Made by a program: the position numbers and the translations under genes
Part shown: positions 8,969 to 56,189 of the stretch, piece after piece
How the letters are laid out: the number at the start of each line of letters is the position of its first letter
Position numbering within the stretch: the first letter of the stretch is position 1
Notes under the pieces: generated by a model
Databases searched by the model: none
What the model was told of the DNA's origin: nothing
Seen by the model: only the letters and a program-made list of their open reading frames with translations
From: Patescibacteria group bacterium
GTDB taxonomy: Bacteria; Patescibacteriota; Patescibacteriia; Patescibacteriales; UBA12465
Reading direction: 5' to 3'
DNA: 64,000 bases
Assembly (NCBI GenBank): GCA_023229115.1
Contig: JALNZW010000002.1
Coordinates: 17,513 to 81,512 of the forward strand

Positions 8969-11122
8969 TTATTTTAAATTAATAGAATCATCAATTGTAG
9001 ATCTTATCGCTCTGACTTTATTAGAGCTTCCCTTATAATATTCTGGAGGAGTTTCAGATAGAGCCTTAGCTTCATTTATAAATTTAAATCTTTTTGAATA
9101 AGAAGGCCTAATACCAGCTACCGCCGAAGAAACATCTAATTCCGTAGAAGACCAATAATAACTATTATAAATACTTAAATTAGTTAAAAGATAGTTCAGT
9201 TCATTGCTTGAGGGCAAATACCAGTCACTATAACCTCCACTCTGATAATCACTTGCTATTTGAGCAGCACTAGAATTACCACAAGGAAGAGACAATATAT
9301 TTGAAGTGTTGCTTGTCCCATCCACAATCGAAAAAGCTTCGGTAAGAACACCATCACAACCCCAAGAAGTTCCAGCACTTTGATCACTTGTTGCCGCTAC
9401 AAAAATTTTAGCTTCATCAGCAATTGTATACCCTTTATAAAAAACAACTCCCCCTCCGCAAGAATCACCTATTTCATTTAAATCCGTACATTCAGTATCT
9501 TGAACAATTGGCTCTTCGCCATCCTCATCTTCAGAGTTAGAAACCAATCTTCTTATAACCAAGGCATTCATATTCTCATTGTCTGGCGATTGATCTTCTA
9601 AAAACATTAAATAGATAATATTATTATCTATTAACATTGAAATGCTAGAAAATATTTCACTATAGGAAGCAATCGGTCCAACATTTTCCCAGGAAGAACC
9701 ATTAAATTTTTTTACCTCCACTAAACCAGGGTCAGTGGCTGGATTAGTAGCTGAGACGTTAACACCATTTTTATAGGCCACATAAGGAACTTCATTATAA
9801 ATATAAAGAGCTAATTGAGAGGCATGACCAACAGAAAAAACTCCATCATTTGGTCCAAGTGGTTGCCAAGAGGTTCCATTAAATTTTAAAGCTGTACCTC
9901 TTTCGCCAACACCTCCGCTTGCAACATCTACACCACCTTGGTAAACAACATATAAATCACCATTATTACTTATTTGAAAATCAGCATGACCAGAGTTTTC
10001 TGAATGAAGTATTTCTATTGGACTACCAACTTGATTCCAAGTAGTTCCATCAAATTTTTTAACCACCCATTTAGGTGACCCAGAATCACAATCTCTTCTA
10101 TACATAGTATAAAGCTCTCCATTATGAATTCTAAGAATTGGCTTGGTTCCTTTTTGACCATTGGAAACAGTTGGCCCAACTTGCTCCCAAGCACCATTTA
10201 CAAATTTGACTACATAAGTTTCCTCGGTAGAAGCTTTGTCCTTGTAAGCCACATAAGGAACATTATTATAAACAGCTAGAGAAGGGTGGCAAGCTATATC
10301 AAAAGAAGTATATTCACCTAAAGACTCCCAACTACCATTTACAAATTTTTTAGTTATAATCATTTGTGAATCATAATTATCTTTATAGGTTATATATGGC
10401 ACTCCATTGAAAACCTGCATGGAAGATTTTCCTCCACTTTGACTGTGAATTGTTGACCCTAAATTAGCCCAAGAATTACCACTTGATTTAGCCATTTTTA
10501 AATAACGACTTTCTGAACTATCTCGATAGGAGGCATAAAGTTCATTATTATAAACATCTAGATTAGAGCTACAACCCCGCTCAGATAAGACTGGAGATCC
10601 ATAGGTTTGCCAAATACAACTTGATGAATCAGCTAAACAATTATTTTCAGTTGAACCATCATCATCTCCCCCTCCTTCAATTCCGCAATCTTGATTTAAA
10701 ATGCCTCCTGGAGTCAAACACTTAAGACCAGAATCTAAATTGTTAGAATCTTTTCCTAAACAAAAAGACAAGAGATAAGTACGATCATTATTTTGAGGTT
10801 GATAGATATATGAGTTTTGTTCTTCGGTGCAAGCACCATCAGCTACAGCCGGAGCAGCAGGAATATTTTGCATATAAATACCATCAATCCCGGCAATTTG
10901 GCCAGAATTCCATTCTTCTTCCGTTGGATAACGATTATTTTCATTAAAAAATAATTCTAAAGCAGTTTGCAGTTGTTTAACATCTGCTAAGCGCTTAGAG
11001 TCGCGGGCGCGAGAACGGGCTTGTTGTAGGGCTACTACGGCTAAGGTGGCTAGTATGCCAACGATAGCTATTACTACCAAAAGCTCGATTAGGGTGAAAG
11101 CTTTTTGTTTTTGTTTGAACAT
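8969..11122 (-). CDS. type IV pilin-like protein with beta-propeller-like repeats and C-terminal DUF1566/Lcl-like lectin-fold domain (717 aa)
   Basis: N-terminus MFKQKQKA|[28 protein letters not shown] and a full pilin domain to ..LKCLTPGGI (aa 1-141). Six to seven ~50-aa repeats of YNNxPYVAYKD..VKKFNGxxWxxVG (aa 186-526, nt 9545..10567). C-terminal GGGVVFYKG..GGYSDWYLPSSNEL..YYWSSTE..KVRAIRS (nt 8999..9466). Confidence 0.85.
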   Translation of the reverse strand: MFKQKQKAFTLIELLVVIAIVGILATLAVVALQQARSRARDSKRLADVKQLQTALELFFNENNRYPTEEEWNSGQIAGIDGIYMQNIPAAPAVADGACTEEQNSYIYQPQNNDRTYLLSFCLGKDSNNLDSGLKCLTPGGILNQDCGIEGGGDDDGSTENNCLADSSSCIWQTYGSPVLSERGCSSNLDVYNNELYASYRDSSESRYLKMAKSSGNSWANLGSTIHSQSGGKSSMQVFNGVPYITYKDNYDSQMIITKKFVNGSWESLGEYTSFDIACHPSLAVYNNVPYVAYKDKASTEETYVVKFVNGAWEQVGPTVSNGQKGTKPILRIHNGELYTMYRRDCDSGSPKWVVKKFDGTTWNQVGSPIEILHSENSGHADFQISNNGDLYVVYQGGVDVASGGVGERGTALKFNGTSWQPLGPNDGVFSVGHASQLALYIYNEVPYVAYKNGVNVSATNPATDPGLVEVKKFNGSSWENVGPIASYSEIFSSISMLIDNNIIYLMFLEDQSPDNENMNALVIRRLVSNSEDEDGEEPIVQDTECTDLNEIGDSCGGGVVFYKGYTIADEAKIFVAATSDQSAGTSWGCDGVLTEAFSIVDGTSNTSNILSLPCGNSSAAQIASDYQSGGYSDWYLPSSNELNYLLTNLSIYNSYYWSSTELDVSSAVAGIRPSYSKRFKFINEAKALSETPPEYYKGSSNKVRAIRSTIDDSINLK

Positions 11123-11141
11123 ATTGTTTTATTACTACCAA

Positions 11142-11244
11142 TTGTCATCCCAGCAAGCCACTTCCTGTATGGCAAAATCTTGGACACAGCTTGGTTTGTA
11201 AAGATTAAACCGCTTCTGTCATCCCAGCGTAAGCTGGGATCCAG
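11142..11244. repeat. palindromic repeat units a (degenerate, 11142..11190) and b (11216..11244)
   Basis: Unit b = CTGTCATCCCAGC-GTAA-GCTGGGATCCAG. Unit a has the same left arm, a long loop and a decayed right arm. Same family at 11349, 34350, 55329, 55402, 55556 and 55595. Confidence 0.8.
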
Positions 11245-11298
11245 CTTGGTTAGTAAAAATAATTGAATTATATAAAATTACTAAATTAATTTATTTAA

Positions 11299-11327
11299 AT
11301 TATACTTATAATCCCTTTGTCAACCAA
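11299..11327 (-). promoter_or_regulatory. sigma70-like promoter of the 717-aa pilin gene
   Basis: Minus strand TTGGTT(11327..11322)-N17-TATAAT(11304..11299). Aligns without gaps to TTGTTT-N17-TATAAT upstream of the second cargo pilin. Confidence 0.55.
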
Positions 11328-11348
11328 TAGAGTACTTAGGTGTTTATT

Positions 11349-11377
11349 CTGGATTCCAGCTTTCGCTGGAATGACAG
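11349..11377. repeat. palindromic repeat unit c (inverted orientation relative to b)
   Basis: CTGGATTCCAGC-TTTC-GCTGGAATGACAG. Confidence 0.8.
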
Positions 11378-11415
11378 GGAATAATTCTATTATAACAAAA
11401 AATATAATTAAAAAA

Positions 11416-14409
11416 TTATTGTCTAAAATCACAGATATCTTTAAAATCACAAAAAGAACAATTAAAAGTTGAAGGCTTTGGTAAAAATTCTTTTTTATTT
11501 ATTTCCTCAATACTGTTTTTTAACCACTCTAGTGTTTTATCAATATCTTTTTCCTTAGCCTCAAAGCTGAGCTTATTGTTTGCCTCTAAATAATAATAAC
11601 TCATTTTTTCAACCTCTAAACTTAAAACACTTTCAATCATTATTTTATACAAAAGTAACTGCCGTTTGTCATCTGAACTTAGAGATTCTTTGGCATTACC
11701 AGTTTTATAATCAATAATTTCAAACTTACCATTTTCTAGCTTATCAATTCTGTCGATTCTACCAATTATAGTTTGATTATTAAATTTATATCTTAAATCT
11801 TTTTCTAAAAAGTATATTTGTGGCAATTTGCCAGAAAGTAAAGATTTGCAAAAATTTTTTAAAATATCCTTACCCTTTAAATTATATTCATTTCTAACTA
11901 ATTTATCCTCATAACCTTCGTCTTGCCAAAATTGACGATAAAGATCTAAAATTCTTTTTTCATTCAATTCTTTTGTATTTATTTTTTGATCAGAAAATAA
12001 ATCAGACTGCAAATTATTCCCACCTTGAAGTATTGGCAAAAGAAAATGATAAAGAGTATTGTGAATAACTTTTCCAAAGGTTAAATTATACTTTTCAGTT
12101 GGAACTGGAACTTTTAATAAATGAGCATATTTATATTGCAAGGGACATTTATCAAAAGAGGCAAACTGAGAATAAGAAAAATAAGCTGGCAGTTTTAACT
12201 CTTCCTTGGTTAGTAAAAACTCTCCAAAATTTTCATCAGAAATTGTTTTTAAATCTTTAAAAAAATCTAAATCATCAAAATTTATTTTTTCAGATATATT
12301 TAATTCCAATTTTGATTCTTTTATAAAAATAGAAGGTCTCTTTTCTCTAGCACCACCATAATCCTTAGAACAACTTAGATATAAATTTTCTTTAGCTCTA
12401 GTTAAGGCTACATAAAACAAACGTCTTTCTTCTTCGATATGAAAATTGTCAGAATTGCCAACTTTTTCTTTAACCAAAGTTTGAGGAACTGGAATTTTAT
12501 CCTTTCGATTATCACTAGGAAAACGTCTTTCCACCAAATCCACTAAAAAAACATGTTTAAATTCTAGGCCCTTGGCGGAATGAACGGTCATAACTTTAAC
12601 GGTATCAACATCAACGAAATCATTTTTCAATCTACCAAAATCACCAGACTCCAATTCAAAATCCAAAACTTCCAGAAAATCTTTCAATCTTAAATTTTCA
12701 TCATCTTCTTCAAATTTTTTTATTTTTTGATAAAACTGATTAATGTAAGAAAAAATCTCTTTATCTTTTTCATGATTTAAATTTTTTAAAATTTCACTAT
12801 CATAAACAAATTTAACAAAAACATGACTTGGTTTTTTATCACGAGCTAAAATGCTATGAGTTTCAATTAAATTCAAAAGCTTATTTATTTTAGGTAAAGA
12901 GACGGAACTGACTCCTTTTATTTTTTCAGCATTTTGCAAACCCTCAAATAAAGACCAATATTTTTTCTTAGACTCTTTAATTATATTTTGTAAATCAAGA
13001 TAGCTTATTTTAAATTCTTCCATGTTTAAAACCCGAAACAATGCTGATGATTCTCGATAATCGTCTAATAATCTAAAATAAGAAATTATATCTAAAATTA
13101 TTGGTTTATAATAAAGACCCTTAAGAGAAACAAAATGATTAGGAATGTTTAAACGACTAAGCTCTTTGGAGTACTTGTCAGCCGAATCGTTAGTTCTAGT
13201 TAAAATAGCAAAATCCAACCAATTACACCCTGGATCTTTTTTATAAATTTCAAAAATCTTGGAGCTAACAAAACTCATTTCATCTGATTCATTTAAAAAA
13301 TTAAAAGCTGATATGGGATTAGATTTTGAATTTTCTGATTCAAAATAAGATTTTAACTTTTTATCAATTCCCAATTTAATCTCTAAACGATTGGGATTAT
13401 TATGAGAAATAAAATTGTAAGCTAAATCAAGTATTTCCTGACGAGAACGATAATTGCGAGTCAAAACTATTTCTTTAGCCTGAGGATAATCATCTTTAAA
13501 CTGCATAATATTAGAAATAGAAGCTCCCCTAAATTTATAAATAGACTGATCATCATCACCAACCACCATCAAATTATTTTTTTTACCAGCCAAAATTTTA
13601 ATTAATTCATATTGAGAAAAATTAGTATCTTGAAACTCATCTAACATCAAATATTTAAATTTTGCTTGATAAACTTTTAAAATATTAGGTCTGGTTTTAA
13701 AAAGTTTAATAGTATAATTTATTAAATCAGCAAAATCTAAATTACCGTCCTCAAGCATGATCTTATTATAGACAAAAAAAGCTTCAGCCAATTCCTTGGT
13801 TTTTTTCAACTCTAAAGTATCTTCTTCACTAAAATCTTTTATTTTCTTAGATTTTTTCTCAAGTTCTATAGAATAATTTAAATATTCTTCTGCTAGAATA
13901 TTTTCATCTTTCAAACGAGAAAAATGGTTTAACAGTTCTTTAATAAATTTATTAGGGTTTCCAGCAGGAGCATAATAATCTAGCTTAAAGCTAGCTAAAT
14001 TCTTTTTTACAAAAATCCACTGAGCTGTCTCATCTAATAATTTAAAATCAGGATTTAAACCAATTTCTAAAGCATGATCACGCAAAACTCTTTCACCAAA
14101 GCCATGAAAAGTATTAATCCAGAGATCAATATAACCGTAGGGTAAAATTTTATCAGCTCTCTCAATCATCTCATTAGCAGCTTTTTCGGTAAAAGTAGCT
14201 AAAAATATTTCATCTGTTTTCACTCCTTCTTCTAAAATTAAATAGGCCAAACGATTGATTAAAACCGTCGTTTTGCCAGTACCAGCGCCAGCCACTACTA
14301 AAAGAGGCCCGTCTTTATGTTTAACAGCCTCTAATTGTTCCTTGTTAAGTTTTTTTAAATCTTCTTTAAACAAATTTAAATCATTTTGTATGTTTTTTTT
14401 GTTTTTCAT
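11416..14409 (-). CDS. UvrD/PcrA-type helicase fused to a C-terminal RecB/Cas4-like PD-(D/E)XK nuclease with a 4-Cys cluster
   Basis: 997 aa. Walker A AGAGTGKTT, DEFQDT, helicase motifs through VMTVHSAKGLEF and YVALTRAK. C-terminal domain FDKCPLQYKY ... GRIDRID..EIIDYKTG ... CSFCDFKDIC (C..C-x2-C-x5-C). Confidence 0.85.
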   Translation of the reverse strand: MKNKKNIQNDLNLFKEDLKKLNKEQLEAVKHKDGPLLVVAGAGTGKTTVLINRLAYLILEEGVKTDEIFLATFTEKAANEMIERADKILPYGYIDLWINTFHGFGERVLRDHALEIGLNPDFKLLDETAQWIFVKKNLASFKLDYYAPAGNPNKFIKELLNHFSRLKDENILAEEYLNYSIELEKKSKKIKDFSEEDTLELKKTKELAEAFFVYNKIMLEDGNLDFADLINYTIKLFKTRPNILKVYQAKFKYLMLDEFQDTNFSQYELIKILAGKKNNLMVVGDDDQSIYKFRGASISNIMQFKDDYPQAKEIVLTRNYRSRQEILDLAYNFISHNNPNRLEIKLGIDKKLKSYFESENSKSNPISAFNFLNESDEMSFVSSKIFEIYKKDPGCNWLDFAILTRTNDSADKYSKELSRLNIPNHFVSLKGLYYKPIILDIISYFRLLDDYRESSALFRVLNMEEFKISYLDLQNIIKESKKKYWSLFEGLQNAEKIKGVSSVSLPKINKLLNLIETHSILARDKKPSHVFVKFVYDSEILKNLNHEKDKEIFSYINQFYQKIKKFEEDDENLRLKDFLEVLDFELESGDFGRLKNDFVDVDTVKVMTVHSAKGLEFKHVFLVDLVERRFPSDNRKDKIPVPQTLVKEKVGNSDNFHIEEERRLFYVALTRAKENLYLSCSKDYGGAREKRPSIFIKESKLELNISEKINFDDLDFFKDLKTISDENFGEFLLTKEELKLPAYFSYSQFASFDKCPLQYKYAHLLKVPVPTEKYNLTFGKVIHNTLYHFLLPILQGGNNLQSDLFSDQKINTKELNEKRILDLYRQFWQDEGYEDKLVRNEYNLKGKDILKNFCKSLLSGKLPQIYFLEKDLRYKFNNQTIIGRIDRIDKLENGKFEIIDYKTGNAKESLSSDDKRQLLLYKIMIESVLSLEVEKMSYYYLEANNKLSFEAKEKDIDKTLEWLKNSIEEINKKEFLPKPSTFNCSFCDFKDICDFRQ

Positions 14410-34349: not shown

Positions 34350-34411
34350 CTAGATCCCAGCTTTCGTCGCGTAAACTCGCCTTGCTCGTACGCAACTCGC
34401 TGGGATGACAG
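34350..34411. repeat. palindromic repeat unit d with 37-nt loop insertion
   Basis: CTAGATCCCAGC-[37 nt]-GCTGGGATGACAG between gdh and trxB. Confidence 0.8.
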
Positions 34412-34425
34412 GGAAAGAGTATTAA

Positions 34426-35652
34426 TTACAAATTTCCTCTTAGTTTTTCGGCCTTAATTATTCTTTCTAAAGCAATAATATAAGCCGCTTTTCTAAGATC
34501 AATTTTTTTATCTAATTCTAAGTGTTTGTTATAAACGTTATGCCAAGATTTTATCATTCTTTCGTTTAGTAGTCCAGCTAAATAATTTTGATCTAAAATA
34601 TTACCAGTTCTATTTTGACTCCACTCGAAATAACTAACCAAAACACCACCAGCATTGGCCAAAATATCGGGTACAACAGTTATACCTTTGTCAAATAAAA
34701 CCTTATCAGCTTCATAGCTAATAGGGCCGTTGGCAATCTCAACCACCTGTTTAGCCTTAATTTTATCAGCATTATTTTCAGTAATCTGATTTTCCAAGGC
34801 ACTTAAAATCAAGATATCAACATCTAATTCTAAAAGTTCATCATTAGAGATGGCCTTGTAATCAGAAAAAGCGGATACAACCCCAAACTCTTCCTTGAAT
34901 TTTATCAATTCGTTAATATCGATTCCTTCTTCGTTATGAACTCCTCCTCGACTATCATTGGCAGCCACTATCTTAAAGCCATCAGCATAAAGCATCTTAG
35001 CAACATTAAGTCCGGCATTTCCGAAACCTTGGATGGCAACAGTTAATCCTTTTTCTGGAAGCCCTAAAGTTTTAACCATTTCCAAAATTACTAAATAAGC
35101 GCCCTTGGCAGTTGAATCACTTCGAAGGGCGATGCCACCTAGCTCAACTGGTTTACCAGTAATCATTCCTGGCTCATGGTGACCAATATTTTTTTCATAT
35201 TGATCAAGCATCCAAGACATAGTTTGAGGATTGGTATAAACATCGGGAGCTGGAATATCTTTATCTTGACCTAAAACTTTATAAAAAGAGTCTATATATT
35301 TACGAGAAACTTTTTCCAAAAATTTAGTATCATGTTCCTTGGGATTAAATTTAACCCCACCTTTAGCACCACCATAAGGAAGATCTAAAAGAGAATTTTT
35401 TAAACTCATCCAAAAAGCCAGAGACTTCACCTCGTCTTCACTAACCTCAGGATGAAATCTAATTCCACCCTTACCTGGACCTAAAGCACGATTAGAAATA
35501 ATTCTCCAGGCAGGAAATTTTTGACCATCAACTTCTAATTCAGCATGAGAAACTAATTTTGGTTCTAATAAATATTTAAGATCTTCATCTTTCAAATTTA
35601 TTACTTCCTTTAAATCTTCAAAACGTTTAATAACATTATCAAAAACAGACAT
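34426..35652 (-). CDS. gdhA: Glu/Leu/Phe/Val-family dehydrogenase (glutamate dehydrogenase-like)
   Basis: 408 aa; GPGKGGIRFHP..LPYGGAKGG catalytic region and GFGNAGL Rossmann motif. Confidence 0.9.
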   Translation of the reverse strand: MSVFDNVIKRFEDLKEVINLKDEDLKYLLEPKLVSHAELEVDGQKFPAWRIISNRALGPGKGGIRFHPEVSEDEVKSLAFWMSLKNSLLDLPYGGAKGGVKFNPKEHDTKFLEKVSRKYIDSFYKVLGQDKDIPAPDVYTNPQTMSWMLDQYEKNIGHHEPGMITGKPVELGGIALRSDSTAKGAYLVILEMVKTLGLPEKGLTVAIQGFGNAGLNVAKMLYADGFKIVAANDSRGGVHNEEGIDINELIKFKEEFGVVSAFSDYKAISNDELLELDVDILILSALENQITENNADKIKAKQVVEIANGPISYEADKVLFDKGITVVPDILANAGGVLVSYFEWSQNRTGNILDQNYLAGLLNERMIKSWHNVYNKHLELDKKIDLRKAAYIIALERIIKAEKLRGNL

Positions 35653-54127: not shown

Positions 54128-55276
54128 TTATTCAGTTCTCAGGCAACGAACAAAAAAACCTAAGGTCTTAGAGTTATTAACACGACTAATTGCAGAATGA
54201 GAAGAGCTCAAATAACGAGACCAAGCACCAGCAGAATAAATAGAAGATGACCAAGACCAAGTAACACTACCAATATTTGAAAAAGAGCCATCTCCGATTC
54301 GGCAGCCAGACGGTAAGGCTGAAAAATAGCTTTCTTCACAACCTAAGACATCGTTGCACCAAGCATGAGTACTTTCACTTTTTAAAGCGTCGCCCTCATT
54401 TGTCCCTGTATAGCCCACTGTTACGATGTCTTTCGGAAATTTTGTTTCACAATCAATATTTCCTAATAATACACAAACTGATCTTTCTAAGTCAGTGAAT
54501 TCGTCATGAGTTGGTACATGCCAACCTGTTGGGCAAATATATCCTTGATCTACCGCATACCAATTATATAGCACACCATAAGTAGAATAATTAGCTTGAG
54601 TTTTAGCCGTATTTACATCACTGCCATTATAATCATAAACACCATAACCTGGTAGTGAATTAATTCCTTGGGTTTCGAACTCTGTATTACTATGAACAGC
54701 TGGAAGATAGGCTAGGTTTTTGGCAAACCAACATTGTGTTCCTATTTGAACTGTTGGGTAAATATTACCATCTCTGGTGTCTGTAAAGTCATCTCCACAG
54801 GTCCAAACTGGAGTTTCTTCTCCGCCTAACTCACTACTACCAAAAATTATTCCACCTGGCGTCATTTGTTTAGCTCCTTCAGGTAGGTCTGATACTTGTT
54901 TGCCAGTACAGAAATTAATAGTGTAAGTAGCTCCATTATTTTGAGGAATATAAATATAAGTATTAGAAGAATCCAAACAATCACCATCAGCTGGAGTAGG
55001 GGCGCTTGGAATATTCTGCATAAAAATTATATTTTCAGTAGAAGAGCCAATAAAGCCTTGATTCCACTCTTCTGTTGTGGGATATCTCCCATACTTATTA
55101 GCAAATAATTCCAGAGCTGTATGTAATTGTTTCATATCAGCCATTCTTTTAGAGTCTCTAGCGTTTTGTCTGACTTGTTGTAAAGACACAACGGCTAGAG
55201 TTGCAAGGATACCAATAATGGCTATTACCACCAAGAGTTAAATAAGAGTGAAAGCTTTCTTTTTTTGTTTAAACAT
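54128..55276 (-). pseudogene. type IV pilin fused to a FISUMP-type (Fibrobacter succinogenes major paralogous) lectin-fold domain, interrupted by in-frame TAA at codon 13
   Basis: ATG 55276: [29 protein letters not shown].. with TAA at 55240..55238 where paralogs have GAG/GAA (Glu+5). Pilin domain to ..AKQMTPGGI. C-terminal CGDDFTDTRDGNIYPTVQIGTQCWFAKNL..YGVLYNWYAV..CPTGWHVPT..FFVRCLR (nt 54137..54799). Confidence 0.8.
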
Positions 55277-55328
55277 AGGTTTTTATTTGTTTTTTAAATG
55301 TCAGCGCAACGAGCGAAAACTAACTCAA

Positions 55329-55450
55329 CTGTCATCCCAGCGAGCCACATTTTACGTGGCGAAAGCTGGGATCCAGCTTAGTTAGTAAAAAATAATCTCC
55401 TCTGTCATTCCAGCGCCATGCCTAAGGCAGGCAAGCAAGCTGGGACCCAG
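55329..55450. repeat. palindromic repeat units e (55329..55376) and f (55402..55450)
   Basis: e = CTGTCATCCCAGC-[GAGCCACATTTTACGTGGCGAAA]-GCTGGGATCCAG; f = CTGTCATTCCAGC-[24 nt]-GCTGGGACCCAG. Each is followed by CTTAGTTRRTAAAAA, as after unit b. Confidence 0.8.
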
Positions 55451-55505
55451 CTTAGTTGATAAAAATAAATATACTGTATAATGATTATTAAATTAATCTA
55501 TTTTA

Positions 55506-55534
55506 ATTATATCTATAATTCTTTTTTTAAACAA
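55506..55534 (-). promoter_or_regulatory. sigma70-like promoter of the pilin-FISUMP gene
   Basis: Minus strand TTGTTT(55534..55529)-N17-TATAAT(55511..55506); homologous position to 11299..11327. Confidence 0.55.
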
Positions 55535-55555
55535 TACAGTGCTTAGGTATTTATT

Positions 55556-55617
55556 CTGGATTCCAGCTTTCGCTGGAATACAAGGGGCGTGGAGGCCAGC
55601 TTACGCTGGAATGATAG
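55556..55617. repeat. palindromic repeat units g (55556..55579) and h (55595..55617), inverted orientation
   Basis: CTGGATTCCAGC-TTTC-GCTGGAAT, a 15-nt spacer, then GCCAGC-TTAC-GCTGGAATGATAG. Confidence 0.75.
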
Positions 55618-55661
55618 ATAGCAATAAGATAATTCTATTATATAGAAAAAAATTGACTCAT

Positions 55662-56189
55662 TTAATCCATGTGTATAATTTCATCGGGATTATATTTTTG
55701 CTTTTTGCCAAAAACCGCTATACCATAATTAAAAAATTTATTATTTTTTTCTTTTGCGTGCCATCTGATTTCAAGCTCTTCATTTTCTAAAAAAGTTCTT
55801 TGGAGAGAATAGGGATCCTCAAAAATAATTTTATTAGAATCATAGCCAATAACGACCACCCAATGGCCATCATTAAAATCATTTTTATATTTAATTTCTT
55901 TTGAATCTTTCCAGGCCTGTAAAAGAATAATAACTGGAATCTCTCTATCAATATAGTCTTTCAAAATATTAATTGTCATTTCCTTAGCTTCAAATTTTAG
56001 CTCAAACTTATTTAAAACATCCTGTATTTTTTTTATTGATGTCCCTTCCTTTGAATTATTTTTTGCATATTTGATTAAAAGCTCTTCGCTAATTTCCACT
56101 CCATAATATTTTAAAACCGCCTGAAGAGATTTGGCTCCACAATCCCACTCATATGTTTGTCTTAATTCGGGAAATTCTAATTGCTTCAT
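55662..56189 (-). CDS. stand-alone C39-like papain-fold cysteine peptidase domain protein
   Basis: 175 aa; Q..YEWDCGAKSLQAVLKYYG (oxyanion Gln + catalytic Cys) and DGHWVVVIGYD (catalytic His); no signal peptide or ABC-transporter fusion. Confidence 0.7.
   Translation of the reverse strand: MKQLEFPELRQTYEWDCGAKSLQAVLKYYGVEISEELLIKYAKNNSKEGTSIKKIQDVLNKFELKFEAKEMTINILKDYIDREIPVIILLQAWKDSKEIKYKNDFNDGHWVVVIGYDSNKIIFEDPYSLQRTFLENEELEIRWHAKEKNNKFFNYGIAVFGKKQKYNPDEIIHMD

What the first reader, a model, noticed from the sequence alone, without database searches (positions are those of the whole stretch)
55277..55661. Second copy of the cassette, expanded by unit duplication and loop insertions
The architecture is the same as at 11123..11415 but longer. 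Units g and h (55556..55617, split by a 15-nt GC-rich spacer) are followed by a promoter core TTGTTT-N17-TATAAT (55534..55506). Two full units f (55402..55450) and e (55329..55376) then sit in a predicted ~220-nt 5' UTR. Each is followed by the shared tail CAGCTTAGTTRRTAAAAA that also follows unit b at locus 1. The motif ATAATTCTATTATA beyond the outer unit is also shared (11381.. and 55630..). Unit stems are conserved (TCCCAGC/GCTGGGA) while the loops carry different nested mini-hairpins (4 to 24 nt here, 37 nt at 34350). Stem conservation with free loops suggests selection on structure, or on a stem-recognising protein, rather than on sequence.
Basis: seen in the sequence. Interest (0 to 1): 0.55.

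Follow-up and report, generated by a model that had tools for sequence, protein, structure and literature searches.

The report
Palindromic REP repeats around pilin promoter
The "cassette" is a cluster of short hairpin-forming repeats (REP elements of the same type as the Neisseria dRS3 repeats) packed around the promoter of a pilin-like gene in a Patescibacteria genome; this is an ordinary kind of feature, but following it up showed that such repeats regularly flank a small GIY-YIG nuclease gene.

Summary
Window 55330-55616 carries four to five hairpin units (e, f, g, h) with the same layout as 11143-11376, plus one more unit at 34350-34410 (11 pattern matches against 0.12 expected).

The units are not a locus-specific device. 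They fit the CGTC/TGTC-tagged REP family 1 of Di Nocera et al. 2013: tag TGTC, 8-bp stem ATYCCAGC, 4-nt loop, tail CCA(G). Neisseria dRS3 and Rickettsia RPE-6 belong to this family. The exact motif occurs in more than 120 genome loci across many phyla.

Family-wide covariation supports selection on the hairpin. The two window loci are paralogous duplicates of the whole pilin upstream region (c~g, b~f, a~e). Sister genomes keep the promoter module but lack, truncate, reorder or multiply the REPs, so the units are dispensable. I found no evidence for promoter inversion, an Rfam family or an integron.

By-product: a ~95-aa Slx1-like GIY-YIG nuclease gene sits between such REPs. This held for 6 of 9 copies in REP-selected loci (P≈3e-17). 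Of 7 protein-selected loci, including Patescibacteria, 6 were flanked on both sides and 1 on one side. It is a candidate for the dedicated enzyme that CGTC REPs were reported to lack.

Verdict: new member of a known kind. Interest is moderate.

The parts
55330..55376 (+). REP unit e. TGTC tag, stem ATCCCAGC/GCTGGGAT, 23-nt loop holding a nested hairpin GCCAC..GTGGC, tail CCAG. Antisense to the pilin gene. Homologous to unit a.
   Evidence: In the RNA fold it extends into a longer hairpin with its flanks ACUAACU/AGUUAGU.
55377..55402 (+). AT-rich tail and spacer after e (CTTAGTTAGTAAAAAATAATCTCCTC). This is part of the 73-74-nt tandem repeat formed by REP plus tail.
   Evidence: D1, D2; 27% GC
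55403..55450 (+). REP unit f. TGTC tag, stem ATTCCAGC/GCTGGGAC, 24-nt loop, tail CCAG. It is the inner arm of the inverted dimer with g and is homologous to unit b plus a loop insertion.
55451..55555 (-). 105-nt AT-rich spacer (15% GC) of the f/g dimer. It is the conserved promoter/leader module, with -10 TATAAT at 55511..55506 and a -35-like TTGTTT at 55534..55529.
   Evidence: Conserved in 8 cassettes from 5 or more genomes. Not called by the consensus scan.
55556..55583 (-). REP unit g. Stem ATTCCAGC, loop GAAA, arm GCTGGAAT, tail CCAG when read on the - strand; the tag is degraded to TTGT. It is the outer arm of the dimer.
   Evidence: (I1, I7)
55593..55616 (-). REP unit h. A degenerate direct copy of g, with tag TATC, loop GTAA and 6 of 8 stem pairs. 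It starts 45 nt after the stop codon of the upstream C39 peptidase gene.
   Evidence: (D3)
55629..55642 (-). Shared outer motif TATAATAGAATTAT (gene sense), also present at 11381-11394 and in L146/L149. It contains a second -10-like TATAAT.
54128..55276 (-). Type IV pilin-like gene with a Fib_succ_major domain, served by the cassette. ATG at 55276..55274. In-frame TAA at 55240..55238 in place of the Glu5 codon.
11143..11376 (.). Paralogous cassette. Unit a 11143-11189 (+, degenerate right arm), b 11217-11244 (+), module 11245-11348 (-10 at 11304..11299), c 11349-11376 (-). It lies upstream of the 717-aa pilin gene 8969-11122.
   Evidence: (I1: 29 nt, 90%)
34350..34410 (-). Solitary REP unit d with a 37-nt loop, 15 nt after the stop codon of gene 34426-35652 and upstream of trxB.
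   Evidence: The same long-loop subtype occurs in L053/L148/L151, and a remnant in L147.

Best explanation
The interval is an array of repetitive extragenic palindromes (REPs) of the CGTC/TGTC-tagged family 1. This family includes Neisseria dRS3 and Rickettsia RPE-6. The array has settled around the conserved promoter/leader module of a type IV pilin-like gene in a Patescibacteria genome.

Anatomy. Each unit is an unpaired tag TGTC, an 8-bp stem ATYCCAGC, a loop (GNAN, or expanded with a nested hairpin), the complementary arm GCTGGRAT, and the tail CCA(G). Units f and g form the family's usual tails-facing inverted dimer, and the 105-nt AT-rich promoter module is their spacer. Unit h is a partial direct duplicate of g. 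Unit e is a second tandem copy of REP plus tail.

Origin. The whole region is a paralogous copy of 11123-11415, duplicated together with the 5' end of the pilin gene and then altered by local duplication and a loop insertion.

Shown:
- Family membership by sequence.
- Selection on base pairing.
- Extragenic location.
- Gain, loss and copy-number change of units around an otherwise conserved promoter in sister genomes.

Inferred:
- The units propagate or recombine as single-stranded DNA hairpins recognised by a structure-specific nuclease. The best candidate is the ~95-aa Slx1-like GIY-YIG protein, whose gene is itself nested between such REPs in many phyla, including Patescibacteria.
- At this locus the units act only passively as RNA hairpins. 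Units g/h (like c and d) would form a 3' hairpin or insulator just after the upstream gene's stop codon. Units e and f would form a structured 5' leader that may alter pilin mRNA stability or translation.
For: Family fit:
- Tag, 8-bp stem starting with AT, 4-nt loop and CCA tail match the published definition of CGTC-1 (PMC3733652).
- That paper equates CGTC-1 with dRS3, and NIME arrays of dRS3 sit next to surface-protein and pilS genes (PMC1797815).

Distribution:
- The exact 27-nt motif is found in more than 120 genome loci from Gamma-, Alpha- and Betaproteobacteria, Dehalococcoidia, Saccharibacteria, Daviesbacteria, Uhrbacteria, Cloacimonadota, Ignavibacteria and others.
- It is also found in 18 IMG/VR stretches.

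Structure, orientation and location:
- Covariation supports the hairpin.
- The tails-facing orientation dominates: 70 pairs, against 14 tag-facing and 31 in the same direction.
- Units are depleted from open reading frames.
- REP units are 46-60% GC; spacers are 13-37% GC in a 31% GC genome.

Dispensability and dynamics:
- L147 (ortholog of locus 1) has no REP in the UTR and only half of the upstream REP.
- L145 has the upstream REP only.
- L146/L149 (orthologs of locus 2) have the units in another order.
- L053 has 2 tandem units; L148 and L151 have 3.

Locus homology.

Nuclease candidate:
- Six of 9 GIY-YIG genes in REP-selected loci have REPs within 135 nt on both sides. The same is true of 0.083% of random segments and 0.28% of small ORFs (P=2.7e-17).
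- Of seven loci selected by protein similarity alone, six are REP-flanked on both sides and the Nitrospira locus only upstream. Four of the seven come from Patescibacteria or Omnitrophota.
Against: - Only 64 kb of this genome could be examined. That gives 3 REP loci and 8 units, so genome-wide dispersal in this organism is not shown.
- Two of the three loci are at pilin genes, and an upstream REP accompanies the promoter module in all 8 cassettes (a truncated remnant in L147). That unit could therefore be functionally integrated rather than a passenger.
- Four of the eight units have loops of 17-37 nt, outside the published 4-5 nt range.
- No GIY-YIG gene is present in the window or in the related cassette loci.
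- The nuclease-REP link is an association only. No activity is known.
- No intrinsic terminator features were found, and no expression data exist.
Confidence: 0.8

Rival explanations
1. A dedicated cis-regulatory leader. The hairpins would be an operator or RNA structure bound by a pilin-specific regulator, or a riboregulator that controls pilin mRNA stability or translation. On this reading they are conserved because they are needed for pilin expression.
For: - Two of the three REP loci in the window are upstream of paralogous pilin genes.
- The 229-nt leader folds better than shuffled sequence (z = -4.26).
- In L146 the degenerate arm ACCUCGGC still pairs through G-U wobbles in the mRNA sense only.
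Against: - Orthologous and paralogous pilin loci L147 and L145 have the same promoter and N-terminal coding sequence but no REP in the UTR.
- The same units occur after unrelated genes (unit d) and in many phyla.
- No Rfam family matches.
- L151 has the module and three REPs with no pilin gene downstream.
Confidence: 0.08
2. A NIME-like recombination substrate. The REP array would have been co-opted to raise recombination or gene conversion at the adjacent pilin genes, diversifying surface proteins as proposed for dRS3 arrays next to pilS/tbpB in Neisseria.
For: - The repeat type and the GC-wave layout are the same as in NIMEs, and the array lies next to pilin paralogs that share the upstream region and about 120 N-terminal residues but have different C-terminal domains.
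- Unit order and number differ between close relatives.
Against: - There is no direct evidence of recombination break-points at the REPs.
- The third pilin gene (2216-2674) has no REP.
- The Neisseria proposal is itself a hypothesis.
Confidence: 0.1
3. An invertible promoter switch (inverton). Units f and g (and b and c) would be the inverted repeats at which a site-specific recombinase flips the 105-nt promoter segment, giving phase-variable pilin expression.
For: Inverted repeats of 29 nt and 90% identity flank a 104-nt segment containing TATAAT upstream of a pilin gene (I1).
Against: - Five assemblies of locus 2 and two contigs carrying locus 1 show one orientation each.
- In every related cassette that is followed by a pilin gene the promoter points towards it.
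- No recombinase was recognised among the ORFs of 110 aa or more in the 64 kb. This rests on reading the translations, not on profile searches.
- The "arms" are members of a cross-phylum repeat whose normal state is an inverted dimer.
Confidence: 0.02
4. Integron-type attC recombination sites, that is, imperfect palindromes with variable central parts.
For: Unit e is bracketed by AACTAAC ... GTTAGTA, which loosely resembles the attC R''/R' cores. Loop length varies while the stem is conserved.
Against: - The cores match the consensus poorly (6 of 7 and 5 of 7).
- There are no ORF cassettes between units.
- No integrase was recognised in the window.
- The units match the CGTC-1 REP definition exactly.
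Confidence: 0.01

Closest known systems
CGTC-1 REP family (Di Nocera, De Gregorio & Rocco 2013, PMC3733652)
   Same: - Unpaired tag CGTC/TGTC, 8-bp stem beginning with AT, 4-nt loop and CCA tail.
- Extragenic, and close to the 3' end of the upstream ORF.
- Mostly inverted dimers with 20-100-bp spacers.
   Different: - The host is a Patescibacteria genome. The paper lists Proteobacteria, Chlorobi, Bacteroidetes, Spirochaetes and Thermotogae.
- Half of the units here have 17-37-nt loops with nested hairpins.
- The dimer spacer is a promoter module.
- The paper states that the family has no dedicated transposase, whereas here a GIY-YIG gene is recurrently nested between the REPs.
Neisseria dRS3 repeats and NIME arrays (Parkhill 2000; Bentley 2007, PMC1797815)
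   Same: - A 20-bp palindrome ATTCCN-N8-NGGAAT.
- Arrays alternating GC-rich palindromes with AT-richer 25-105-bp spacers.
- Next to pilin and other surface-protein genes.
- Arrays vary in unit number between strains.
   Different: - The sixth stem base pair is A:T instead of C:G (a compensatory variant).
- The arrays here are short (3-5 units).
- No filamentous prophage or IS110-type integrase is seen.
- In 2007 NIMEs were thought to be restricted to Neisseria.
REPIN/RAYT systems and E. coli BIMEs (GTAG-tagged REPs)
   Same: - Inverted REP doublets with a spacer.
- Extragenic and multi-copy.
- The associated enzyme gene is itself flanked by REPs (a REPtron-like layout for the GIY-YIG gene).
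   Different: - The tag is CGTC/TGTC, not GTAG.
- The flanked gene encodes a GIY-YIG (Slx1-like) nuclease, not an IS200/IS605-type HUH tyrosine transposase.
- No mobility has been demonstrated.
Correia elements (CREE) of Neisseria and other promoter-carrying MITEs
   Same: A short inverted-repeat-bounded element upstream of genes that can contribute promoter sequence and RNA hairpins.
   Different: - The terminal repeats here are REP hairpins, not 51-bp terminal inverted repeats.
- No target-site duplication is seen.
- The promoter module also exists without one of the REPs (L145, L147).

Membership tests
CGTC-1 REP family | Unpaired terminal tag CGTC (TGTC or CCTC allowed) | tested here: met
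   TGTC is present in a, b, c, d, e and f. It is degraded in g (TTGT) and h (TATC).
CGTC-1 REP family | 8-bp stem with A-T and T-A in the first and second positions | tested here: met
   The stem is ATYCCAGC/GCTGGRAT in b, c, d, e and g. Unit f has 7 of 8 pairs (with one T·G), h has 6 of 8, and a has a degenerate right arm.
CGTC-1 REP family | 4-nt loop | tested here: inconclusive
   Units b, c, g and h have GTAA or GAAA. Units a, d, e and f have loops of 17-37 nt. Long-loop variants also occur in other taxa, and the paper notes variable loops in Bradyrhizobium.
CGTC-1 REP family | 3-nt unpaired tail, consensus CCA | tested here: met
   The tail is CCAG in b, c, e, f and g, CTAG in d and ACAG in a; h, a truncated copy, has no recognisable tail. 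It is CCAG in 199 of 238 family members.
CGTC-1 REP family | Multi-copy, interspersed and extragenic; inverted dimers predominate | tested here: met
   The window has three intergenic loci. The 120 genome loci hold 280 REPs: 70 tails-facing pairs, 14 tag-facing and 31 in the same direction. Units are depleted from ORFs. A genome-wide count for this organism could not be made.
Neisseria dRS3/NIME | 20-bp inverted repeat ATTCCC-N8-GGGAAT | tested here: not met
   The sequence here is ATTCCA-N8-TGGAAT or ATCCCA-N8-TGGGAT. The sixth pair differs by a compensatory change. The CCCGC variant does exist in other loci.
Neisseria dRS3/NIME | Arrays of palindromes separated by 50-150-bp repeat (RS) elements, with a GC wave profile | tested here: met
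   Spacers are 9-105 nt and 13-37% GC (the 9-nt g-h spacer is GC-rich, 89%), between units of 46-60% GC. The REP-plus-tail module is repeated.
Neisseria dRS3/NIME | Integration target of filamentous prophages through an IS110-type recombinase | not testable with these tools
   No such element is in the window and there are no experimental data.
REPIN/RAYT (GTAG REPs) | GTAG tag and a RAYT (IS200/IS605-like) gene flanked by the REPs | tested here: not met
   The tag is TGTC. No RAYT is in the window. The gene found between such REPs elsewhere is GIY-YIG, PF01541.
Invertible promoter (inverton, fimS-like) | Both orientations present in the population, and a cognate recombinase | tested here: not met
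   Only one orientation is seen in each assembly of the two loci (five of locus 2, two contigs of locus 1), and the promoter points towards the gene in every related cassette followed by a pilin gene. No recombinase ORF was recognised in the 64 kb by reading the translations. Raw reads were not available.
Integron attC site | R''/R' core sites, cassette ORFs and IntI | tested here: not met
   The core matches are poor. There are no ORFs between units and no integrase.
Any Rfam RNA family | A covariance-model match | tested here: not met
   Only tRNAs and tmRNA reach the gathering threshold in the window. In 55150-55750 nothing scores better than E = 0.67.

The most novel reading that the evidence does not exclude
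CGTC/TGTC-tagged REPs (the dRS3 family) may not be orphan repeats. They may instead be the recognition sites or non-autonomous partners of a minimal ~95-aa Slx1-like GIY-YIG nuclease whose own gene sits inside a REP pair. That would be a REPtron analogue built on a GIY-YIG enzyme instead of a RAYT, present from Proteobacteria to Patescibacteria and Omnitrophota. On this reading the pilin cassette is a REP dimer that carries a promoter as its cargo, in the position where the nuclease gene sits in the autonomous form.
Probability: 0.35. Interest if true: 0.75.

Novelty: new member of a known kind. Interest (0 to 1): 0.4.

Why it matters
For the window itself:
- The finding is explained. The hairpins are REPs of a described family.
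- The result extends that family to Patescibacteria and to several other phyla not listed in 2013.
- It also shows a Neisseria-like mosaic array next to pilin genes in a very distant lineage.

The larger point is the by-product:
- The enzyme that spreads or acts on dRS3/CGTC REPs has been an open question since these repeats were described. The 2013 survey states that they lack a dedicated transposase.
- The regular nesting of a minimal GIY-YIG nuclease gene between such REPs gives a concrete candidate that can be tested biochemically and phylogenetically.
- It also suggests a function for the bacterial Slx1-like UPF0213-type proteins (nearest solved structure 1zg2), for which I found no characterised function.

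Tried and rejected
- Rfam, gathering threshold on the window and permissive threshold on 55150-55750: no family matched.
- Inverton idea: rejected. Assemblies show one orientation and no recombinase was recognised.
- attC idea: rejected. The cores match poorly and there are no cassettes.
- My first reading of L053 was that a pilin start codon follows the REPs. This was wrong. The ATGTTCAAGCC belongs to the end of an inserted IS; L151 is the empty site.
- Peptide-string literature search (VIPAKAGIQ and similar): no papers.
- Literature searches for a GIY-YIG/REP link, or for REPs in Patescibacteria: nothing found in the held library. That library lacks most subscription journals.
- HMM search for the GIY-YIG gene in the window, the related cassette loci and the IMG/VR loci: none.
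- Suppressor tRNA that could read the in-frame TAA: none in the window.
- The L146 coordinates in alignment A3 were mis-set. That row is uninformative and was not used.

Full report
**1. Observation**

The region 55277-55661 is the intergenic space between a C39 peptidase-like gene (55662-56189, - strand) and a type IV pilin-like gene (54128-55276, - strand; Fib_succ_major domain). It contains these units:
- e, 55330-55376
- f, 55403-55450
- g, 55556-55583
- h, 55593-55616

Read with GTCAT first, each is built on TGTC-ATYCCAGC-loop-GCTGGRAT-CCAG. Units e and f lie on the + strand and g and h on the - strand.

The same motif occurs at 11143-11376 (units a, b, c) upstream of a paralogous 717-aa pilin gene, and once at 34350-34410 (unit d). 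The pattern gives 11 matches against 0.12 expected by chance.

Alignment A3 shows that the two pilin upstream regions are homologous from end to end. Unit c corresponds to g and b to f. Unit a corresponds to e; both carry the nested GCCAY..RTGGC hairpin. Locus 2 is longer because of the extra partial copy h and a ~20-nt insertion in the loop of f. The region is identical in five independent assemblies.

**2. What the units are**

ORFs that run through the units translate as VIPAKAGIQ or WIPAFAGMT. I recognised this from memory as the signature of a very widespread palindrome, and treated it as a lead only.

These came from Gamma-, Alpha-, Beta- and Zetaproteobacteria, Dehalococcoidia/Chloroflexota, Saccharibacteria, Daviesbacteria, Uhrbacteria, Cloacimonadota, Ignavibacteria, Acidobacteria and Verrucomicrobia. 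IMG/VR gave 18 further stretches. In these loci the 5' flank is usually CGTC or TGTC and the 3' flank CCAG.

This matches point by point the CGTC-1 family of Di Nocera et al. 2013:
- an 8-bp stem starting with AT;
- a 4-nt loop;
- a CCA tail;
- mostly inverted dimers with 20-100-bp spacers;
- a position close to the 3' end of the upstream ORF.

The paper equates CGTC-1 with Neisseria dRS3 and Rickettsia RPE-6. In Neisseria, dRS3 (ATTCCC-N8-GGGAAT) alternates with 50-150-bp RS elements in NIME arrays. These arrays show a GC wave, sit beside surface-protein genes including pilS, and vary in unit number between strains.

Here the units are 46-60% GC and the spacers 13-37% GC, in a 31% GC genome. 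The organism is a "Patescibacteria group bacterium" MAG. This phylum is not among the five listed for CGTC repeats in 2013. No paper in the held library pairs Patescibacteria with REPs.

**3.

*Compensatory change.* I collected 79 distinct 27-nt units anchored only on tag+AT and AT+tail, leaving the inner 6+4+6 positions free.
- 95.3% of cells pair, against 83.9% in shuffles (0 of 500 reach the observed value) and 11-45% when the partner column is slid.
- Six of 8 pairs show double changes.
- Pair 10-19 occurs as AU 37, GC 19, CG 13 and UA 3. Pair 7-22 occurs as UA 49, CG 18, AU 3 and GC 3.
- The set is partly biased, because retrieval required CCAGC/GCTGG in one unit per locus. The other stem types were by-catch and are unbiased.

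*Coding or extragenic.* In loci below 50% GC, only 11% of REPs lie in open frames of at least 200 aa, which cover 71% of the bases. Over all loci the figures are 32% against 79%. All eight window units are intergenic.

*Loop.* The loop consensus is G-N-A-N (GAAA, GAAG, GCAG and others). From my own knowledge, GCGAAAGC is a classic exceptionally stable DNA mini-hairpin. That hints at a single-stranded DNA form, but I did not test it.

**4. Are the units needed here?**

The best-conserved stretch of the two cassettes is the -10 box and the following leader. I used it (TATAATTWAAATARATTAATTTARTRAT) for the one metagenome scan. It returned six true relatives (sequences printed).
- L147 is the ortholog of locus 1 (same helicase gene end, same pilin). 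It keeps the module, has only the right half of an upstream long-loop REP, and has no REP in a ~60-nt leader.
- L145 is another pilin locus. It has the upstream REP only.
- L146 and L149 are orthologs of locus 2, with the Glu5 codon intact. They have the upstream REP and two leader REPs, but the simple-loop and long-loop units are in the opposite order from the window.
- L053 has two 53-nt REP-plus-tail repeats. L148 and L151 have three.
- In L151 no pilin gene follows the cassette.

So the promoter module is the conserved entity, and the REPs around it are gained, lost, duplicated and rearranged. This is REP behaviour, not that of an obligatory riboregulator. An upstream REP is present in all eight cassettes (a truncated remnant in L147), so it may be an integrated part of the duplicated block.

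**5. Orientation and the inverton question**

Units b/c and f/g are inverted repeats (29 nt, 90% identical) flanking about 104 nt that contain TATAAT. In the 120 genome loci this tails-facing arrangement is the norm: 70 pairs, against 14 tag-facing and 31 direct. Spacers are mostly 9-60 nt.

Every assembly and every relative shows the same promoter orientation. No recombinase was recognised in the window. I therefore reject an invertible switch.

The promoter rests on conservation only. A second -10-like box (TGTTATAAT / TATATAAT) lies upstream of the outer REP.

**6. Likely effect at this locus (inferred)**

Units c, d and g/h lie 15-45 nt after the stop codon of the upstream co-directional gene. 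They read tag-first with GNRA-type loops in that transcript. This is the position reported for "uni-REPs", and it suggests a 3' hairpin or insulator.

Units e and f would be transcribed antisense-oriented in the pilin leader. The 229-nt leader folds with z = -4.26, and unit e forms an extended hairpin with its flanks. Whether this changes pilin expression is unknown.

**7. By-product: a nuclease gene nested in these REPs**

In the REP-selected loci, inverted REP pairs 370-470 nt apart enclose a ~95-aa ORF. This occurs in Marilutibacter (L035), Acidiferrobacterales (L047) and Cloacimonadota (L090). The ORF is a GIY-YIG domain protein (PF01541, E = 4e-14 and 4e-16).

Profile and tblastn searches found nine copies in the 857 kb of REP-selected loci.
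- Six have REPs within 135 nt on both sides and seven have one on at least one side.
- The both-sides figure is 0.083% for random 290-nt segments and 0.28% for small ORFs (binomial P = 2.7e-17).
- Six of 12 REP pairs spaced 250-550 nt apart enclose this gene.

Reciprocal test. Homologues were found by protein similarity alone; each of two searches returned at least 7,900 proteins with E ≤ 1e-10, and both searches saturated. Their contigs were then fetched.
- Ca. Nitrospira inopinata: one REP 157 nt upstream.
- P0080 locus: REPs 59 nt upstream and 131 nt downstream, in a region holding 15 REPs per 6.3 kb with stem variant CCGGC.
- P0039 locus: inverted REPs 16 nt upstream and 105 nt downstream.
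- A Patescibacteria MAG, a Doudnabacteria, a Moranbacteria and an Omnitrophota genome: TGTC-tagged REPs end 4-12 nt before the ATG and start 0-8 nt after the stop. In the last three the element sits between housekeeping genes: transketolase/pfkB, PGM/trpS and argG/argH respectively.

The closest solved structure is 1zg2 (UPF0213 protein BH0048). This is the bacterial Slx1-like "minimal" GIY-YIG group.

Di Nocera et al. state that CGTC REPs are not associated with transposase genes. A GIY-YIG gene would not have been counted as a transposase in that survey. I found no paper in the held library that links GIY-YIG to REPs.

The link is an association. The nuclease might mobilise REPs, home into them, or simply tolerate them. 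No such gene is in the window.

**8. Verdict**

The finding is real and is explained by a known class, so it is a new member of a known kind. Its own interest is modest. The GIY-YIG association raises the value of following it up.

Noticed in passing
window 55238-55240 (- strand codon 13 of gene 54128-55276): The pilin-like gene behind the cassette has an in-frame TAA exactly where the conserved Glu5 codon (GAA) of the prepilin motif should be (MFKQKKKAFTLI*LLVV). The stop is identical in five independent assemblies. The orthologs L146/L149 and the paralog at 8969-11122 have GAA. No suppressor tRNA is in the window. The gene is either a pseudogene or is expressed from the internal TTG at 55234 without the leader peptide.
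   Followed up: partly
L035 5902-6425; L047 5084-5510; L090 3688-4212; L069 4356-4781; L089 1406-2684; L172 2962-3419; L182, L184, L187, L188 around 2380-2870: A ~95-aa Slx1-like GIY-YIG nuclease gene is regularly nested between CGTC/TGTC-tagged REPs in many phyla. The REP tail ends 4-16 nt before the ATG in most of these loci and a REP follows the stop codon. The element often sits between housekeeping genes. The published survey says this REP family lacks a dedicated enzyme.
   Followed up: yes
window 55556-55616 (g/h); L069 4733-4781; L116 7611-7656; L163/L166; L187 2793-2850; L146/L149 upstream REP: A recurrent motif in unrelated taxa: a half REP (tag plus left arm, sometimes with part of the loop), then 9-16 nt, then a full REP in the same orientation. 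The outer arms could pair to form a long-loop REP. It may be a footprint of how the units duplicate or insert. It remains unexplained.
   Followed up: no
L184, L188, L182, L069 (the REP immediately upstream of the GIY-YIG ATG): In the Patescibacteria loci examined, the REP next to the nuclease start codon is a subtype with a 5-nt loop CTTGA. Its inner stem positions co-vary (CCAAA/TTTGG, CCAGG/CCTGG, CCCGA/TCGGG).
   Followed up: no
L053 377-1700, L148; empty site in L151 ~12020-12060: An IS encoding a 433-aa DDE transposase is inserted directly after the last REP of the homologous cassette, with an apparent GAGTAT duplication. L151 shows the uninterrupted site.
   Followed up: partly
L151 ~11990-12090 (- strand), also L053 1690-1830: Downstream of the REP-module-REPx3 cassette there is no pilin gene. 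Instead there is a TTGCTATAAT promoter-like box, about 90 nt (ACAGACGAAGGGATATCCAAACGGCTAACTACCCAAGGAGACCC...) and a strong terminator hairpin. This may be a small RNA. There was no Rfam hit at the gathering threshold.
   Followed up: partly
L162-L171 (near-identical contigs from different samples): The number of REPs in the array just downstream of the GIY-YIG gene differs between samples, from 1 to 4 or more. This indicates recent array dynamics.
   Followed up: no
L034 3891-6554: IS30-like and IS5-like transposase ORFs lie between consecutive same-orientation REPs in a Dehalococcoidia chromosome. This suggests IS insertion into REP arrays.
   Followed up: no
L003, L004, L005 (Logan contigs): All three contigs end exactly 520 nt after the C39 gene, inside the conserved N-terminal pilin coding sequence shared by the paralogs. 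This is probably an assembly break at a repeat.
   Followed up: no
window 11394-11402 and 55640-55648 (- strand): An extended -10-like box (TGTTATAAT / TATATAAT) lies just upstream of the outer REP in both loci. TGCTATAAT is in the same place in L146/L149. Transcripts from it would begin with the REP hairpin.
   Followed up: no
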